From a phage, in sequence record PZ386961.1: 64,000 nt of DNA; one strand, given 5' to 3'. Position 1 is the stretch's first letter. Every line of letters begins with the position of its first letter. Positions 46,866 to 53,495 of the stretch are shown here, one piece after another. Both the position numbers and the translations under genes were made by a program. Below the pieces are notes generated by a model, which was not told where the DNA came from, searched no databases, and worked only from the letters and a program-made list of their open reading frames with translations.

Positions 46866-47600
46866 TTATTTCTGTAATGCGTTCTTCATTTCTGGTGTTG
46901 CAATAGTGTCAATTACACCAGTTTTACAAGCATCATCAAACCAGTCTGGTAAGATACCTGCTAAGAACCCATTGATATTCGTTTTAAGGTACTCTGCAAT
47001 AAGAGCAGCTTCTTCTTCAATCATCTGCACAACTTCATCTGCATAAGCTGTAATCTTTGAGATACCTTCATTAATCTTACTAACAGCTTGGTTAGCTAAA
47101 TCAGAAATAGTATCAAGACCTTTGTCAATAGCGTCTTGTAAGTCACTTAACACACCATTAACACCGTCTAGTGCACTGTTAATCGTATCAATAGCTTTTT
47201 GACCATACTCTGTAGCAACACCCATAATACCACTAAATGGTGTACAGCCAACTTGTTCACCTGCTGCACCCATAACATTAGAGTAACCTTTTGCTACCTG
47301 CATACGTGATGAAAACTCATCAATGGACTTTTGACCGTAATCTGTTAGTGTTTTGGTGGTTGATGTAGTGCTTGTCAGACTCGTGGTAAAGCTGTTAAGC
47401 AGAACTGTTGTAAGTCCAGCAGCAACAAGCTTATCCTTTACTGTAGGGTCTGATACAGAGCTAATAGAGCTTACAAGTGATGTAGAGGCAGCTACGGTTC
47501 CACCGAGAACTGCTGCACCAGTAATAAGGGGGTTAGAAAACCCTTTACCTGTTTTTAAGAGATTGAAAATCTCCTTACCTTGTTCTGTCATCTCTTTCAT
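46866..47600 (-). CDS. hypothetical Ser/Thr-rich protein embedded in tRNA cluster
   Basis: Start moved to ATG 47598-47600 because the track start (GTG 47663) overlaps a tRNA. Confidence 0.45.
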   Translation of the reverse strand: MKEMTEQGKEIFNLLKTGKGFSNPLITGAAVLGGTVAASTSLVSSISSVSDPTVKDKLVAAGLTTVLLNSFTTSLTSTTSTTKTLTDYGQKSIDEFSSRMQVAKGYSNVMGAAGEQVGCTPFSGIMGVATEYGQKAIDTINSALDGVNGVLSDLQDAIDKGLDTISDLANQAVSKINEGISKITAYADEVVQMIEEEAALIAEYLKTNINGFLAGILPDWFDDACKTGVIDTIATPEMKNALQK

Positions 47601-47616
47601 TAAGCACCTTTGAAAT

Positions 47617-47693
47617 TGGTAGTCCAGTGGGATTTGAACCCTCTTCTCATGTTTTTCAGACACGCGCTTTAACCATATAAGCTACTTGGACTA
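47617..47693 (-). tRNA. tRNA-Phe (anticodon GAA), non-canonical D-arm junction
   Basis: Manual fold: acceptor tagtcca/tggacta, loop ctGAAaa; extra nucleotides between acceptor and D-stem. Confidence 0.45.
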
Positions 47694-48051: not shown

Positions 48052-48609
48052 TTACTTTCTCAGTGGATGAATAAAGAATGCCAACATAACTCTTTCCCTT
48101 GAGAATGCTCTTTCTTCTGGGACAACACTTTTAAGTTTCCATCCAACATAAATTCTCCAGTAAAACTGTTTACCGAAGACTTTAATTGATGGGATAAAAG
48201 CGAATAATCCCCAAGCATTACTGTTCCACATTAGGAGATAACCAGTCTGATTATCTTCAGGGTTAGAACTTACGTTGATATTACCTTTCCACTTAGTAAC
48301 ATCTCTTACATCTCTTCCTAATACATGGTAAGAGAAGTTATAAGCTTTGTTTCTCCAGAGCCATCCGACTCTTTGCATGTAGACACCTAGTTTACCAATC
48401 CATCTAATATTAGCCCATCTTTTAACGTGACCTTCATCACCATCAATTGGGTTGTCATATGTCTCCATCCATCTGAACCCGAAAGGTAAGTGTCCTTTCT
48501 TCTCACTGTAGAATGGAACTACAAAAGGTGCTAAGATAACTGCTAAGATTGCTGCAAATGGCTCTAACAAAGCTAAGAAAATCCATGAAGCATACTTTAA
48601 GTATCTCAT
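48052..48609 (-). CDS. hypothetical Trp-rich membrane protein embedded in tRNA cluster
   Basis: 185 aa, N-terminal hydrophobic helices. Confidence 0.5.
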   Translation of the reverse strand: MRYLKYASWIFLALLEPFAAILAVILAPFVVPFYSEKKGHLPFGFRWMETYDNPIDGDEGHVKRWANIRWIGKLGVYMQRVGWLWRNKAYNFSYHVLGRDVRDVTKWKGNINVSSNPEDNQTGYLLMWNSNAWGLFAFIPSIKVFGKQFYWRIYVGWKLKSVVPEERAFSRERVMLAFFIHPLRK

Positions 48610-50261: not shown

Positions 50262-50463
50262 ATTAATCTTTAAAGACTCTCTTAGAAAGCCCTTAAAGAT
50301 GCCCACCTTATTAATCATACCGTGGGCGAGTACGCCAAATTCTTTGATGAGGGATTGGAAGACCTCACTGGTGTTTAGCCTATCAAGCTACTGCCAGAAA
50401 AACATTGTCGTTTGCATTTATTTTAAATTTGCAAAATAGACGCTACGCAACGAAAACTAAGGT

Positions 50464-50492
50464 TACTATAAAGTAGTCACATCTCAATGTCA
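50464..50492 (-). promoter_or_regulatory. sigma70-like promoter TTGACA-N17-TATAGT inside tRNA cluster
   Basis: Minus-strand hexamers read directly; faces tRNA-Arg(UCU) and downstream tRNAs. Confidence 0.5.
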
Positions 50493-50507
50493 ACAACTTT
50501 ATTGAAA

Positions 50508-50583
50508 TTGGTACTGGTAGGTGGAATCGAACCACCGATGTTCCCTTATCAGGGGAGTGTTATAACCTTCTTAACTATACCAG
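50508..50583 (-). tRNA. tRNA-Ile (anticodon GAU)
   Basis: Manual fold: loop ctGATaa, D-stem gtta/taac, discriminator A. Confidence 0.7.
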
Positions 50584-50820: not shown

Positions 50821-50963
50821 AATTATCTTTGTAGATAAGCTACCCAGACTTGCTTAAGGTCTGTAGCGATGTGCCTTTTGGGTTTAAATCTAGAATTTAC
50901 CCTTTCACCCTTTGTGGTCGCATACTCACAGGTAAGCTTAATAACTTATCTACAAAGATAATT
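50821..50963. repeat. 19-bp perfect inverted repeat (aattatctttgtagataag / cttatctacaaagataatt) enclosing about 105 nt
   Basis: Both arms read directly at 50821-50839 and 50945-50963. Confidence 0.6.
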
Positions 50964-51017
50964 ACCAGACCGTTGTTTATCATCTTAAGTGCTACCATTA
51001 CACCAACTCGACATCTG

Positions 51018-51050
51018 CCGAGTGAAGGAATCGAACCTTCGCCTTTTCTT
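51018..51050 (-). other. isolated tRNA T-arm-like module (gaagg-ttcgatt-ccttc) followed by hairpin actcg/cgagt; tRNA fragment or tRNA-like ncRNA
   Basis: No matching 5' acceptor strand nearby. Confidence 0.3.
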
Positions 51051-51243
51051 TACCGGAGAAATAGATTGTTTAAAGTTTGCTGTAAACGGTCTTCTGTAAA
51101 TTTGTTGAGCCAGACCAAGTTTTAAATTTTCAAAATTAAATTGGCTTGAAATTTCATACATTCTTGCTGTATTTGGTCTTCTGCTCCTTTAAAGAATACT
51201 CGTAAGAACTCTTTAAGGGAGGGGCTAAATAGCCCTCTCAAAA

Positions 51244-51321
51244 TTGGCGGTTACGAAGGGATTTGAACCCTCATCATCTCCCGTGACAGGGGAGTATTTT
51301 AACCAAATTAAACTACATAAC
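51244..51321 (-). tRNA. tRNA-Asp (anticodon GUC)
   Basis: Manual fold: stem ctccc/gggag, loop ctGTCac, discriminator G. Confidence 0.7.
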
Positions 51322-51501: not shown

Positions 51502-51584
51502 ATGTTTAGTATTACCAGACCGTATCTTTCAATTTTTCCGCTAAAAATTTAATAAGTATTGCTGTAAACGGTCTTCTGTAAATT

Positions 51585-51660: not shown

Positions 51661-51752
51661 AATTCTTAATGACCAGACCAAATCTCTTCTTTGTCCGATT
51701 TACCTTCAGATGAATAAGATTAAGTTTGCTGTAATTGGTCTTCTGTCAAAAC

Positions 51753-51914: not shown

Positions 51915-52032
51915 ATAAACTTTTCAAACTCTATGTAACCACTTTAACATTATTTTTTAGTGGTTGTCAAGAACTTTTTTAAAATATTTTTCAGTATCTT
52001 AGAAAAGCTCTCATTTCGTTTCTATGTAGAAC

Positions 52033-52061
52033 ATATTAAAGGGTATTAAACACATTGTCAA
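52033..52061 (-). promoter_or_regulatory. sigma70-like promoter TTGACA-N17-TAATAT upstream of tRNA cluster
   Basis: Minus-strand hexamers read directly; about 110 nt upstream of tRNA-Pro. Confidence 0.5.
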
Positions 52062-52079: not shown

Positions 52080-53495
52080 TTACCAGATATAACGGTCAAT
52101 CATTACTGCTTTGAGCATTACACTGATTGGGTCAAACTTCTCACCACCAAGCAGAGCTTTTAAAGTGGCTGGAGAGAACCCTGATACCATTGCTACACCG
52201 TTATCCTTAATAGATACTTCGCAAGTGCCATTACGGTTTGCTAAGTACCAGAATACCAGTTGTGGCATCTCATATCCAGATTTTTCGTACTTATCTCGAA
52301 TTGCTTCAAAGTTTGTACGACCATTAGCACCATCAACCTGATTAAACTCCATATCAGAGAAGATAATAAGCTTACTTGGCATATCTTTCTGAGTCAAGTT
52401 GTTTCTTTTACCTGTTTCAAGAATGCGGTCAAAAGCTGCTTGTAAGTTAGTTGAGCCATATTCAACGTGTCGCATCACCTGACGATGACGGTTTCGTAAA
52501 TCACCACTCAGTTCGATGAAGTGAGGGTTTGTCGAATAAACCATCAACTCATTCTTAAAGCAACCTGTATTGCGTTCTGCTACATACAAGGCAAGTGATA
52601 CACCAATATCCAGAGCAGTAATGGAGCCAAAATTCACCCAAGACATTGAACTTGATACATCAGACATACACAAGATGTTTTCACCTTCTGCCATCCAGTT
52701 TGGTAGTGCTTTCCACTGCTCATTAGCAACATCTGCATTACCATACTTGACAGATTTAATCACATCGTATGGGTAAACAGCACCAGCGTTAATCTTAGTC
52801 TCACCTTTTGATAAGGACTCGATGTAAGCTTTGTAACGCTCTCCATCTTTACGGTTAAACAGTTTTTGGTAACGTGCAGCAGCAAGTGAAGGAATCTTAC
52901 TGTAGTCAATCTTACCAAACTCATTAGCAGAGATTTTTTGCTCAACTGTATCAGATAGTGCAGACAACAGTGTGCGGTACTCTTTCTCACTCAAGTTGGC
53001 AAACTTGCAGAAACGTTTTACAAACTGCTTATGACGTGGTTTGACTCGTGGTAACCACTTAGCCGCCAAACCTGCTGTTGCAGGGTCTAGTAATGCTGCT
53101 TCTAAATGCTTGAAGGCATCTGTCTCGAAACGAGTACCTACAAAGATTTTGAAGTCATCAAAACGACCAAGTTCTGCAATCTTATCCATAATGCGAAGAA
53201 CCTGCGTAGGCTCTAAAACTTTATCTTCAATTGCTTGAAGCAAAACAGTTCTGAAGGCTTTACGCTCACCCATACCTTCTCGTACATCTCGCATATGAAG
53301 CAAAATACGAACTGCAACATCAACATCCTCACGCAAAGCTTTGTAGAACAAGTCTGGTAAGATTTCTACATTGCTACGGCTTGAACCAGCAGCTTTGTAA
53401 AAGTCTACAAGAGCAGACATTGATGAAGTATGGTTTACAGCACCATTTTCAGTTCGACCTGCATGAAGGTGCGCATGTTTAAATAATTCGCTCAT
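52080..53495 (-). CDS. vWA-domain protein with helical N-terminal domain (Ro60/TROVE-like or DUF2828-like)
   Basis: C-terminal MIDAS motif in ILCMSDVSSSMSW (DxSxS) and downstream IIFSDMEF; N-terminal about 270 aa helical. Confidence 0.5.
   Translation of the reverse strand: MSELFKHAHLHAGRTENGAVNHTSSMSALVDFYKAAGSSRSNVEILPDLFYKALREDVDVAVRILLHMRDVREGMGERKAFRTVLLQAIEDKVLEPTQVLRIMDKIAELGRFDDFKIFVGTRFETDAFKHLEAALLDPATAGLAAKWLPRVKPRHKQFVKRFCKFANLSEKEYRTLLSALSDTVEQKISANEFGKIDYSKIPSLAAARYQKLFNRKDGERYKAYIESLSKGETKINAGAVYPYDVIKSVKYGNADVANEQWKALPNWMAEGENILCMSDVSSSMSWVNFGSITALDIGVSLALYVAERNTGCFKNELMVYSTNPHFIELSGDLRNRHRQVMRHVEYGSTNLQAAFDRILETGKRNNLTQKDMPSKLIIFSDMEFNQVDGANGRTNFEAIRDKYEKSGYEMPQLVFWYLANRNGTCEVSIKDNGVAMVSGFSPATLKALLGGEKFDPISVMLKAVMIDRYIW

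What the first reader, a model, noticed from the sequence alone, without database searches (positions are those of the whole stretch)
51018..51130. Orphan tRNA T-arm module followed by a hairpin, next to a conserved motif repeated three times
A perfect T-arm (gaagg-ttcgatt-ccttc) has no matching acceptor 5' strand, and is followed by hairpin actcg/cgagt. The motif ttgctgtaaacggtcttctgtaaatttg recurs at about 51078, 51548 and 51722 in inter-tRNA spacers, sometimes with ccagacc. These may be processing signals, promoters or parts of tRNA-like ncRNAs.
Basis: seen in the sequence. Interest (0 to 1): 0.45.

Follow-up and report, generated by a model that had tools for sequence, protein, structure and literature searches.

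The report
Phage Y-RNA-like RNAs beside Ro60-like gene
The "orphan T-arm" is the core of a circularly permuted tRNA-like RNA, and the repeated motif is the shared handle of four small RNAs lying just downstream of a Ro60-like protein gene; the same gene-plus-RNA pairing turns up in more than a hundred other phage and bacterial loci and closely resembles a class of amoeba RNAs thought to be unique to them.

Summary
The window is a Felix O1-like phage, and its 26-tRNA cluster is on the minus strand. The T-arm is real. Its "missing" 5' acceptor strand lies 4 nt downstream, followed by a D-arm, so this is a permuted tRNA-like fold (T arm, closed acceptor stem, D arm). The closed stem changes on both sides between genera. 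The repeated motif occurs four times, not three. With CCAGACC it forms a terminal helix next to a single-stranded UUACAGCAA box.

The gene heading the cluster (52080-53495, minus strand) has a Ro60 fold. It is the ortholog of Bas63 gp130, whose authors only guessed that Y RNAs lay among the tRNAs.

Stem-CAGCAA units sit beside homologous genes, on the same strand, in three samples:
- 31 units in 15 phage records (about 1 expected)
- 83 units in 75 viral contigs (about 5 expected)
- 145 units in 80 bacterial loci (about 4 expected)

Some long units elsewhere match Rfam YrlA in the tRNA-like core but lack its GNCGAA motif. Short units resemble Dictyostelium Class I RNAs.

Best reading: these are Y-RNA-like partners of a divergent Ro60. 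Binding and expression are not tested.

The parts
52080..53495 (-). Ro60-like protein gene (471 aa): helical DUF2828 region plus a C-terminal vWA domain (DUF7788) with an invariant DxSxS MIDAS-like motif. Ortholog of Bas63 gp130.
   Evidence: Pfam and PHROG 850 'RNA-binding protein'. Invariant D279/S281/S283. AF2 model with pLDDT 89.9. The Foldseek top 11 PDB hits are all Ro60/TROVE over the full length, with TM up to 0.65. bas63_0130 has the same size and position.
51670..51748 (-). Unit A, a short Y-like RNA: UGAC-AGA-AGACCAA-UUACAGCAA ... UUGGUCU-G-GUCA. It lies between tRNA-Glu and tRNA-Met, 5 nt after one and 9 nt before the other.
51512..51581 (-). Unit B, a short Y-like RNA: UUAC-AGA-AGACCGU-UUACAGCAA ... 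ACGGUCU-G-GUAA. It lies between tRNA-Met and tRNA-Asn.
   Evidence: It is the top hit in the whole window for a covariance model built without any Ounavirinae sequence (24.4 bits, E 7e-4).
51107..51186 (-). Unit D, a short Y-like RNA: GAGC-AGA-AGACCAA-AUACAGCAA ... UUGGUCU-G-GCUC.
   Evidence: Its helix is invariant across genera.
50962..51099 (-). Unit C, a long Y-like RNA with a permuted tRNA-like domain. The same outer helix (UUAC-AGA-AGACCGUU / AACGGUCU-G-GUAA) encloses a five-way junction.
   Evidence: The RNAfold minimum-energy structure gives exactly these helices. 97.8% of pair cells are paired across 14 variants, against 42-54% in slid controls.
51077..51085 (-). UUACAGCAA box of unit C, single-stranded and directly 3' of the 5' helix strand.
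   Evidence: Invariant in 14 Ounavirinae variants. CAGCAA is invariant in 23 units from 8 other phages.
51045..51061 (-). Anticodon-arm-like hairpin UUUCU-CCGGUAA-AGAAA. Its loop varies in sequence and in length.
   Evidence: Loop variants are CCGGTAA, CGGTAA, CTGGTAA, CTTATAA, CTATAAA and CTATGAA.
51024..51040 (-). T-arm GAAGG-UUCGAUU-CCUUC.
   Evidence: The stem is invariant; one loop position shows G/A in one variant.
51006..51023 (-). Closed acceptor-like stem (AS): ACUCGGC-AGAU-GUCGAGU, 7 bp.
   Evidence: Changes on both sides: ACACGT/GCGTGT in Suspvirus and some Mooglevirus, ACCCTTC/GAAGGGT in Mordin. Three pairs change on both sides, 18 cells, 0 of 500 shuffles reach this.
50989..51003 (-). 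D-arm GUGU-AAUGGUA-GCAC, preceded by UG at the position of tRNA nucleotides 8-9.
   Evidence: A14, G18-G19 and A21 equivalents are present (read from the sequence).
50821..50963 (-). Unit E, an adjacent, strongly structured RNA with a stem of about 25 bp. Whether it belongs to the system is uncertain.
   Evidence: z-score -6.4. 22-nt inverted repeat (I1). Stem changes on both sides between genera. An inner hairpin loop reads CUUAAGCAA, which resembles the box (read from the sequence).
51941..52061 (-). Two sigma-70-like sites between the Ro60-like gene and tRNA-Pro: TTGACA-17-TAATAT and TTGACA-18-TAAAGT. A third lies at 53564-53535, upstream of the gene.
   Evidence: These are consensus matches only, and the total count is not above the shuffle expectation.

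Best explanation
The region encodes four small non-coding RNAs of the Y-RNA kind. They are the likely RNA partners of the Ro60-fold protein encoded directly upstream on the same strand.

Shown here:
- Each RNA closes its ends in a helix whose sequence varies but stays complementary.
- The 5' strand of that helix is followed by a conserved, unpaired (U)UACAGCAA box.
- The 3' strand is followed by an unpaired G.
- One RNA (unit C) carries, inside this frame, a circularly permuted tRNA-like domain: anticodon-arm-like hairpin, variable region, T arm, closed acceptor stem, D arm. This is the domain layout of bacterial YrlA.
- This RNA module accompanies homologs of the protein gene across distant phages and bacteria.

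Inferred:
- The RNAs are transcribed with the tRNA cluster. They are cut out by the tRNA-processing enzymes acting on the flanking tRNAs, because units A and B start 4-5 nt after one tRNA and end 9-11 nt before the next.
- The helix, the box and the trailing G form the binding site for the Ro60-like ring. This replaces the GNCGAA motif that canonical Ro60 recognises.
- The variable loop is an effector module. In unit C it presents a tRNA elbow (intact T-loop and D-loop). That could recruit a tRNA-recognising enzyme such as RNase P, the CCA-adding enzyme, or an exoribonuclease as in Ro60-Y RNA-PNPase complexes. It could also act as a decoy for such an enzyme.
- The particle then acts on RNA quality control or counter-defence during infection.
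For: **Structure of unit C**
- It is the RNAfold minimum-energy structure.
- 97.8% of cells are paired, against 42-54% in slid controls. The closed stem changes on both sides in 3 pairs (sequences).
- The strict T-AS-D detector gives no false positive among the 26 tRNAs of the window.

**Protein**
- High-confidence model.
- Its 11 best PDB matches are all Ro60/TROVE, including a phage Ro60.
- Mycobacteriophage homologs are annotated 'Ro-like RNA binding protein'.
- Bas63 gp130 was independently called Ro60-like.

**Association of the stem-CAGCAA units with the gene, on its strand**
- 31 same-strand, 4 opposite, 1.2 expected in 15 phage records.
- 83, 12 and 5.3 in 75 IMG/VR loci; 60 units lie within 700 nt of the gene.
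- 145, 13 and 4.3 in 80 bacterial loci.
- Scrambled hexamers give 8-25 hits against 228 for CAGCAA.

**Kinship with YrlA**
- Long units in Enterococcus and mycobacteriophages have the same frame plus T-AS-D.
- They match Rfam YrlA end to end at 35.8-47.8 bits, E down to 1e-7.

**Hold-out test**
- A model built without Ounavirinae ranks unit B first in the window.

**Context in other phages**
- An RtcB-like ligase or an RNA ligase lies near the gene in Listeria and Erwinia phages.
Against: - There are no expression, end-mapping or binding data for these RNAs.
- gp130 alone, from a plasmid or inserted in T7, counters the Ppl defence. So at least that activity does not need the phage's own RNAs.
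- The window's unit C is not detected by Rfam YrlA even at E<=10.
- No relative reaches YrlA's gathering score of 69 bits.
- The hold-out model finds only one of the four window units.
- The units used for the stem covariation count were selected for perfect stems, so the 100% pairing there is circular.
- 4 of 15 phage lineages (large T4-like and jumbo phages) show no unit within 3 kb of the gene.
- The Ro60 fold rests on a predicted model, not a solved structure.
Confidence: 0.68

Rival explanations
1. The helix-plus-box units are cis-acting elements of the operon transcript, not free trans-acting RNAs. They could be RNase III/E processing sites, stabilisers, or sites through which the Ro60-like protein regulates its own mRNA and the tRNA precursor.
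For: The units directly abut the gene, either upstream or downstream: 60 of 79 non-genic units lie within 700 nt. In the window they sit inside a polycistronic tRNA cluster. No separate promoter was found for each unit.
Against: - Tandem arrays of up to 8 units with different stems look like multi-gene RNA families rather than a single regulatory site.
- One unit carries a complete tRNA-like domain, as the free YrlA RNA does.
- Flanking tRNA processing would release the units in any case (inference).
Confidence: 0.17
2. The T-arm region is debris: remnants of two adjacent tRNA genes (the 3' half of one, the 5' half of the next) decaying in a tRNA cluster, with no function.
For: - Rfam tRNA gives a sub-threshold hit at 51016-51080.
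- One record annotates a 131-nt 'tRNA-Thr GGT' here.
- In Mordin and Cronobacter S13 the loop of the closed stem begins with a discriminator base plus CCA, like a tRNA 3' end. This fits an origin from a tRNA dimer.
Against: - The two 'halves' are mutually complementary, and the helix is kept through changes on both sides in three genera.
- The T and D arms are nearly invariant, while the spacers around them diverge.
- The same permuted layout recurs beside homologous genes in phages of Mycobacterium, Enterococcus and Cronobacter, and in metagenomes.
Confidence: 0.04
3. Unit C is a genuine permuted tRNA gene that is matured into a decoding tRNA, as in the red alga Cyanidioschyzon.
For: The 3' half lies upstream of the 5' half with a perfect 7-bp acceptor pairing. 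An anticodon-arm-like hairpin is present.
Against: - The 'anticodon loop' varies in sequence and even in length (6 or 7 nt) among close relatives, and position 33 is C.
- The break lies between the D-arm and the anticodon arm and is closed by a conserved long-range helix carrying the box.
- No circularisation machinery is known in these hosts (general knowledge).
Confidence: 0.03
4. The repeated motif and its inverted partner are the terminal inverted repeats of a miniature mobile element that has spread in the tRNA spacers.
For: There are four copies with inverted termini in one 700-bp stretch. The content between the termini varies.
Against: - The termini differ between copies in a compensating way (GT/AC against AA/TT; UUAC/GUAA, UGAC/GUCA, GAGC/GCUC). 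That is selection for pairing, not for a transposase site.
- There are no copies elsewhere in 64 kb.
- The positions are orthologous and stable across genera.
- Across 170 loci the units are strand-locked to one gene family.
Confidence: 0.03

Closest known systems
YrlA, the bacterial tRNA-like Y RNA (Rfam RF02553; Chen et al. 2014, PMC4201824)
   Same: - Encoded within 4 kb of a Ro60-type gene, on the same strand.
- The 5' and 3' ends pair.
- The internal domain runs variable region, T arm, closed 'acceptor' stem-loop, 2 nt, D arm.
- The 7-bp closed stem matches M. smegmatis YrlA, which RNase P cleaves.
- Relatives of the window's unit in other phages align to the YrlA model across its whole length.
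   Different: - The protein-binding module is different: helix + UUACAGCAA + G, instead of a GNCGAAN0-1G motif near the 5' end. In the Rfam alignment the outer helices do not pair, and the match starts after the box.
- There is an extra anticodon-arm-like hairpin.
- The partner protein belongs to a divergent Ro60-fold family (DUF2828 + DUF7788), with no Pfam TROVE hit.
- The RNA is embedded in a tRNA cluster.
Dictyostelid Class I RNAs (Rfam RF01414; Kjellin et al. 2021, PMC7919456)
   Same: - A terminal stem of 6-7 bp, variable in sequence but compensating.
- The conserved 11-nt CCUUACAGCAA box directly after the 5' strand.
- A conserved (A)AG start and a CUG(U) end.
- Length of about 50-65 nt with a variable loop.
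- Many copies per genome (compared).
- Phage units score 23-31 bits with the curated model, always at units found independently.
   Different: - No unit reaches the gathering score of 41.5 bits. The window's own units are weak matches (14.7 bits).
- In the window the end reads CUGG, and there is an extra outer 4-bp helix.
- Class I RNAs are eukaryotic, have their own DUSE promoter, were reported as unique to Dictyostelia, and their only proven binder is the RRM protein CIBP/Rnp1A.
- I could not check whether Dictyostelium has a DUF2828-type protein.
Thermus phage phiLo Ro60 with Yrl1 and Yrl2 (PMC12135203; PDB 9KOP, 9L5Y)
   Same: A phage-encoded Ro60-fold protein with phage-encoded Y-like RNAs next to the gene. 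These structures are the best structural matches of the window's protein.
   Different: The phiLo RNAs were recognised by a CGAA motif in a bulge and have no tRNA-like domain described. Sequence identity of the proteins is about 16-17%.
Bas63 gp130 (PhageMaP preprint, 10.1101/2024.10.10.617714)
   Different: They suggested that some annotated tRNA genes might be Y RNAs and identified none. The candidates found here are unannotated spacer elements. In Bas63 they lie under two small opposite-strand 'hypothetical protein' calls.

Membership tests
YrlA (RF02553) | Encoded within about 4 kb of a Ro60 ortholog, on the same strand | tested here: met
   Unit C lies about 1 kb downstream of the Ro60-fold gene, and both are on the minus strand. 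Caveat: the protein is a divergent Ro60-fold family, not a Pfam TROVE hit.
YrlA (RF02553) | tRNA-like domain in the order V region, T arm, closed acceptor-like stem, D arm | tested here: met
YrlA (RF02553) | GNCGAAN0-1G motif near the 5' end (the presumed Ro60 contact) | tested here: not met
   The only match (GGCGAAG at 51043) overlaps the T-stem and is not conserved; relatives read GGAGAAG or GGTGAAG. The 5' region carries UUACAGCAA instead.
YrlA (RF02553) | Reaches Rfam's gathering score (69 bits) | tested here: not met
   No hit for the window at E<=10. Related long units in other phages score 28.7-47.8 bits.
YrlA (RF02553) | Bound by the Ro60 protein; modified or cleaved by tRNA enzymes | not testable with these tools
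   Needs immunoprecipitation, EMSA and RNase P assays.
tRNA (RF00005) | Cloverleaf with the 5' and 3' ends paired in the acceptor stem; passes the Rfam cutoff or ARAGORN | tested here: not met
   24.7 bits against a cutoff of 29, with the 5' acceptor positions unpaired. No ARAGORN call.
tRNA (RF00005) | Conserved 7-nt anticodon loop with U33 | tested here: not met
   The loop varies in sequence and in length, and position 33 is C.
Dictyostelid Class I RNA (RF01414) | Short terminal stem joining the 5' and 3' ends, with compensatory variation | tested here: met
   Note that the stems were pre-selected for pairing.
Dictyostelid Class I RNA (RF01414) | 11-nt motif CCUUACAGCAA adjacent to the 5' stem strand | tested here: inconclusive
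   The window has 9 of 11 (UUACAGCAA) in three units and AUACAGCAA in the fourth. The exact 11-mer occurs in many metagenomic relatives.
Dictyostelid Class I RNA (RF01414) | Reaches Rfam's gathering score (41.5 bits) | tested here: not met
   14.7 bits in the window. The best relatives score 29.6-30.7 bits.
Dictyostelid Class I RNA (RF01414) | Dictyostelid gene with the DUSE promoter element about 60 nt upstream | tested here: not met
   This is a phage genome, and the units lie inside a bacterial-type tRNA operon.
Ro60 / TROVE protein | HEAT-repeat ring followed by a vWA domain with a MIDAS motif | tested here: met
   Predicted fold, full-length Foldseek matches to Ro60 structures, invariant DxSxS. 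This is based on a model, not a solved structure.
Ro60 / TROVE protein | Sequence membership in Pfam TROVE | tested here: not met
   Only DUF2828 and DUF7788 are reported at E<=10. No PDB sequence hit. No NCBIfam hit.
Permuted tRNA gene (Cyanidioschyzon type) | 3' half upstream of the 5' half, matured through a circular intermediate into a decoding tRNA | tested here: inconclusive
   The order is met. A conserved anticodon is not. Circularisation cannot be tested here.

The most novel reading that the evidence does not exclude
The helix + CCUUACAGCAA + CUG(U) module is the recognition element of an unrecognised, very widespread branch of Ro60-like proteins (DUF2828 + vWA) in bacteria and phages. 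The dictyostelid Class I RNAs belong to the same RNA family. These are abundant, developmentally regulated, of unknown mechanism, and were reported as unique to social amoebae. On this reading they would be the Y RNAs of a eukaryotic DUF2828-type protein, perhaps acquired from bacterial prey. The uncharacterised protein DDB_G0281243, which co-purified with Class I RNA DdR-21, is the obvious candidate.
Probability: 0.35. Interest if true: 0.92.

Novelty: new variant of a known kind. Interest (0 to 1): 0.8.

Why it matters
- **It supplies concrete RNA candidates.** Bas63 gp130 is a phage counter-defence protein with a demonstrated phenotype, but its mechanism is open.
- **It shows a second RNA code for Ro60-type proteins.** Ro60-fold proteins of the DUF2828 type come with their own RNA family, which uses a recognition module different from canonical Y RNAs. 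The pairing is seen in well over a hundred phage and bacterial loci.
- **It corrects annotation.** In Felix O1-like genomes these RNAs are currently missing, called as odd tRNAs, or covered by spurious small ORFs.
- **It makes the Dictyostelium question testable.** If the resemblance to Class I RNAs reflects real kinship, a twenty-year-old question (what those RNAs bind and do) could be tested directly.

Tried and rejected
- **Rfam at permissive thresholds on the unit.** No family covers it. The sub-threshold tRNA hit explains why some records call a tRNA here.
- **tRNA or tRNA-with-intron reading.** Rejected: the proposed 5' acceptor does not pair.
- **Promoter reading of the motif.** One weak match at one copy only.
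- **Sequence search of the protein against the PDB, and wide Pfam, NCBIfam and PADLOC scans.** Nothing beyond the DUF names. Only the fold comparison was informative.
- **AFDB fold search to look for eukaryotic or Dictyostelium homologs.** The library was unavailable.
- **Literature and supplement searches for DDB_G0281243, DUF2828 and the motif.** No domain information and no prior description were found.
- **Avesson 2011.** The paper is not held.
- **GNCGAA motif search.** One non-conserved chance match.
- **Hold-out covariance model.** It has low information content and recovers one of four window units, so it is supportive but weak.
- **Strict T-AS-D detector in Yersinia phage P778 and in large T4-like phages.** No module was found near the gene.

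Full report
**What is in the sequence.** The window is a Felix O1-like myovirus (Felixounavirus): 299 phage records match the region, the best at 98.8% identity. ARAGORN finds 26 tRNA genes, all on the minus strand, between 46691 and 51914. The finding therefore has to be read on the minus strand.

On that strand the T-arm is GAAGG-UUCGAUU-CCUUC (51040-51024). It is followed by ACUCGGC, a 4-nt loop and GUCGAGU, which is a perfect 7-bp helix. Next come UG and a D-arm, GUGU-AAUGGUA-GCAC. So the 5' acceptor strand is not missing. It lies downstream of the 3' strand, which makes this a circularly permuted tRNA-like fold with a closed acceptor stem. Upstream of the T-arm there is also an anticodon-arm-like hairpin (UUUCU-CCGGUAA-AGAAA).

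The whole unit is enclosed by a long-range helix. RNAfold returns exactly this five-way junction as the minimum-energy structure.

The repeated motif has four copies, not three. The composite AGAAGACC-N2-4-TACAGCAA occurs four times in 64 kb, all on the minus strand within 650 nt. All four units share the frame NNNN-AGA-AGACCNN-(U/A)UACAGCAA ... NNGGUCU-G-NNNN. Both helix segments differ between copies in a compensating way: GU/AC against AA/UU, and UUAC/GUAA, UGAC/GUCA, GAGC/GCUC.

**Conservation.** The Asp-to-Lys spacer aligns across Felixounavirus, Suspvirus and Mooglevirus. The T and D arms, the outer helix and the box are essentially invariant. The closed acceptor stem is ACUCGGC/GUCGAGU, ACACGU/GCGUGU or ACCCUUC/GAAGGGU.

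On 14 distinct variants, including viral-contig sequences, 97.8% of pair cells are paired, against 42-54% when the partners are slid. Three pairs of the closed stem change on both sides (18 cells; 0 of 500 shuffles reach this). The other helices never vary within this subfamily, which on its own says nothing either way.

The loop of the anticodon-like hairpin varies in sequence and in length (6 or 7 nt), so it is not a decoding anticodon. One GenBank record calls a 131-nt 'tRNA-Thr' here. Others place small opposite-strand ORFs over it.

**The neighbouring gene.** The 471-aa ORF at 52080-53495 (minus strand) heads the tRNA cluster.
- It carries Pfam DUF2828 and DUF7788 and belongs to PHROG 850 'RNA-binding protein'.
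- A 45-sequence alignment shows an invariant DxSxS motif typical of vWA MIDAS sites.
- The AlphaFold model is confident (pLDDT 89.9, pTM 0.89).
- Its eleven best Foldseek matches in the PDB are all full-length Ro60/TROVE structures: Thermus phage phiLo Ro60, Xenopus Ro60 with and without RNA, and Deinococcus Rsr. TM reaches 0.65. Only isolated vWA domains follow.
- Sequence searches alone give no such link.
- tblastn finds homologs in 710 phage records. The mycobacteriophage ones (31-34% identity, E down to 1e-77) are annotated 'Ro-like RNA binding protein'.

**The RNA module travels with the gene.** A weak Rfam hit first drew attention to the 'stem + UUACAGCAA' feature, and the same model then hit next to Ro-like genes in other phages. 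I therefore scanned for a fixed geometry: a 7-nt strand, 3 nt, CAGCAA, 10-170 nt, then a perfect complementary 7-mer.

| Sample | Same strand as gene | Opposite strand | Expected (shuffles) |
|---|---|---|---|
| 15 phage records of distant lineages | 31 | 4 | 1.2 |
| 75 independent IMG/VR loci (protein 38-47% identical) | 83 | 12 | 5.3 |
| 80 bacterial genome/MAG loci | 145 | 13 | 4.3 |

- In the phage records, 30 of the 31 units abut the gene, in 11 of 15 lineages. These include phages of Mycobacterium, Listeria, Staphylococcus, Enterococcus, Fusobacterium, Campylobacter, Aeromonas, Vibrio, Cronobacter and Yersinia.
- In the IMG/VR loci, 52 of 75 carry a unit. 60 units lie within 700 nt of the gene, and 71 of 83 are followed by G.
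- In the bacterial loci, 64 of 80 carry a unit, and 129 of 145 are followed by G.
- Scrambled hexamers of the same composition give 8-25 hits on either strand, against 228 for CAGCAA.
- Arrays reach about eight units, each with a different self-complementary stem.

Caveat: because the scan demands a perfect stem, the 100% pairing in the 23-unit alignment is partly built in. The independent evidence is the enrichment, the strand bias and the position.

A covariance model built from those 23 units, with no Ounavirinae sequence, ranks the window's unit B first in all 64 kb (24.4 bits, E 7e-4). It misses the other three, which have longer inserts.

**Two size classes.** Unit lengths are bimodal, about 46-65 nt and about 90-135 nt. 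Long units in mycobacteriophages Rumpelstiltskin and CicholasNage, Enterococcus phage ZJGS3 (two units) and Cronobacter phage S13 enclose the same T arm, closed stem and D arm as the window's unit C. In the 75 viral-contig loci, ten such modules lie on the gene's strand against two opposite, and four are nested in a strict frame.

Rfam's curated YrlA model aligns end to end to three of these long units: 47.8 and 35.8 bits in ZJGS3, 39.8 bits in CicholasNage, with E down to 1e-7. All are below the 69-bit gathering score. In the alignment the tRNA-like core matches. The outer helices that carry YrlA's GGCGAAUG motif do not pair, and the match begins just after the CAGCAA box. The effector domain is therefore YrlA-like, while the presumed protein-binding module is different.

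Chen et al. define YrlA by four features: proximity to Ro60, same strand, the T/AS/D domain and the GNCGAAN0-1G motif. The window's RNA meets the first three and fails the fourth. In Mordin and S13 the loop of the closed stem starts with a discriminator base plus CCA. [quoted passage not shown]

**Most likely mechanism.** *Shown:* a conserved, structurally constrained RNA family, strand-locked and adjacent to a Ro60-fold gene family, with one member carrying a YrlA-type tRNA-like domain.

*Inferred:*
- The RNAs are made from the tRNA operon transcript. Perfect TTGACA sites lie upstream of the gene and between it and tRNA-Pro, but such matches are not above chance overall.
- Units A and B begin 4-5 nt after one tRNA and end 9-11 nt before the next. 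RNase P and the 3' tRNA-processing enzymes would therefore release them with their helix ends nearly flush.
- The helix, the unpaired box and the trailing G are the Ro60-like protein's binding site.
- The loop is an effector module. In unit C it offers an intact tRNA elbow (U8, A14, G18-G19, U54-U55-C56, A58 equivalents are read from the sequence) to a tRNA-recognising factor.
- By analogy with Ro60-Y RNA-PNPase particles and the phiLo system, the particle would tether or gate a nuclease, or act as a decoy.
- An RtcB-like ligase near the gene in a Listeria phage and an RNA ligase in an Erwinia phage fit an RNA repair or quality-control setting.

Against an obligatory role: gp130 alone rescues T7 from Ppl.

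**The Dictyostelium resemblance.** Kjellin et al. describe Class I RNAs as follows:
- 42-65 nt long
- a 6-bp terminal stem of variable, compensating sequence
- a conserved 11-nt motif directly after the 5' strand
- a conserved AAG start and CUGU end
- many genes per genome
[quoted passage not shown] Many carry the exact CCUUACAGCAA.

Rfam's Class I model hits nine of the units found independently, at 23.1-30.7 bits, always on the gene's strand. None reaches the 41.5-bit gathering score, and the window's own units are weak (14.7 bits). The printed E-values are multiplied by 4227 families. For a hypothesis fixed after the per-family values would be about 4000 times lower (inference).

One Class I RNA was pulled down with four proteins, one of which, DDB_G0281243, has no known function. 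I could not obtain its sequence or check whether Dictyostelium has a DUF2828 protein. DUF2828 genes are mentioned for plants and a tardigrade. This link is therefore a hypothesis, not a finding.

**Verdict.** The element is best described as a new variant of the Y RNA/YrlA kind: a family of Ro60-like-associated RNAs with a different recognition module, here embedded in a phage tRNA cluster. I found no prior description in Rfam 15 or in the searchable literature. The closest prior statement is the speculation in the PhageMaP preprint.

Noticed in passing
window 50821-50963 (-): A separate, very stable structured RNA (unit E) lies directly after the tRNA-like unit. It has a stem of about 25 bp and a z-score of -6.4. 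The stem changes on both sides between genera while the interior diverges. An inner hairpin has the loop CUUAAGCAA (CUUUAGCAA in other genera), which resembles the box. Some Felix-like phages lack this segment (matches stop at query position 295).
   Followed up: partly
window 51187-51244 (-): Two hairpins immediately after tRNA-Asp are invariant across three genera: GAGAGGGCU-AUUU-AGCCCCUC, and a 17-bp stem with a UACG loop. The second overlaps the outer helix of unit D, so alternative pairings are possible.
   Followed up: no
L014 4395-4637 (Cronobacter phage S13); L019 2716-2830 (Vibrio phage PhiImVa-1): Normal-order tRNA-like genes of 113-121 nt lie next to the Ro-like gene. Each has an insertion of about 45 nt in the anticodon/variable region. 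The insertion contains UUAACAGCAA in PhiImVa-1 (annotated as a suppressor tRNA) and UAUUCAGCA in S13. Rfam tRNA scores are 41-57 bits; ARAGORN finds none in S13 (it was not run on L019). This may be a third way of joining the box to a tRNA body.
   Followed up: partly
L013 929-1480 (Listeria phage LP-083-2): A ROOL RNA match (87.4 bits, just under its cutoff of 99.1) lies about 1 kb upstream of the Ro-like gene. An RtcB-like ligase lies 1.3 kb downstream.
   Followed up: no
window 50262-50567 (-): Weak matches to tmRNA (15.9 bits) and permuted tmRNA (29.2 bits, E 0.0045, full model length) lie in the tRNA-free gap between tRNA-Arg and tRNA-Ile, partly overlapping tRNA-Ile. ARAGORN calls no tmRNA.
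   Followed up: no
L049 1249-1523 (Bas63), and several other records: Small opposite-strand 'hypothetical protein' ORFs (for example bas63_0137 and bas63_0138) are annotated over the conserved RNA region. They are probably spurious calls.
   Followed up: partly
L092 4924-4978; L108 4928-4982: Near-threshold matches to the cyanobacterial sRNA NsiR1 (37.7 and 38.6 bits, cutoff 39) lie a few hundred nt downstream of the Ro-like gene in two viral contigs, just after stem-CAGCAA units.
   Followed up: no
window 46866-47663 and 48052-48609 (-): Two protein genes of unknown function (DUF7217, DUF7338) are embedded within the tRNA cluster on the same strand.
   Followed up: no
L130-L209 (bacterial genomes and MAGs): The Ro60-like gene with its RNA units is common in Clostridia and other gut and environmental bacteria, including contigs of 0.3-2.4 Mb. 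I did not determine whether these are prophages or chromosomal systems.
   Followed up: partly
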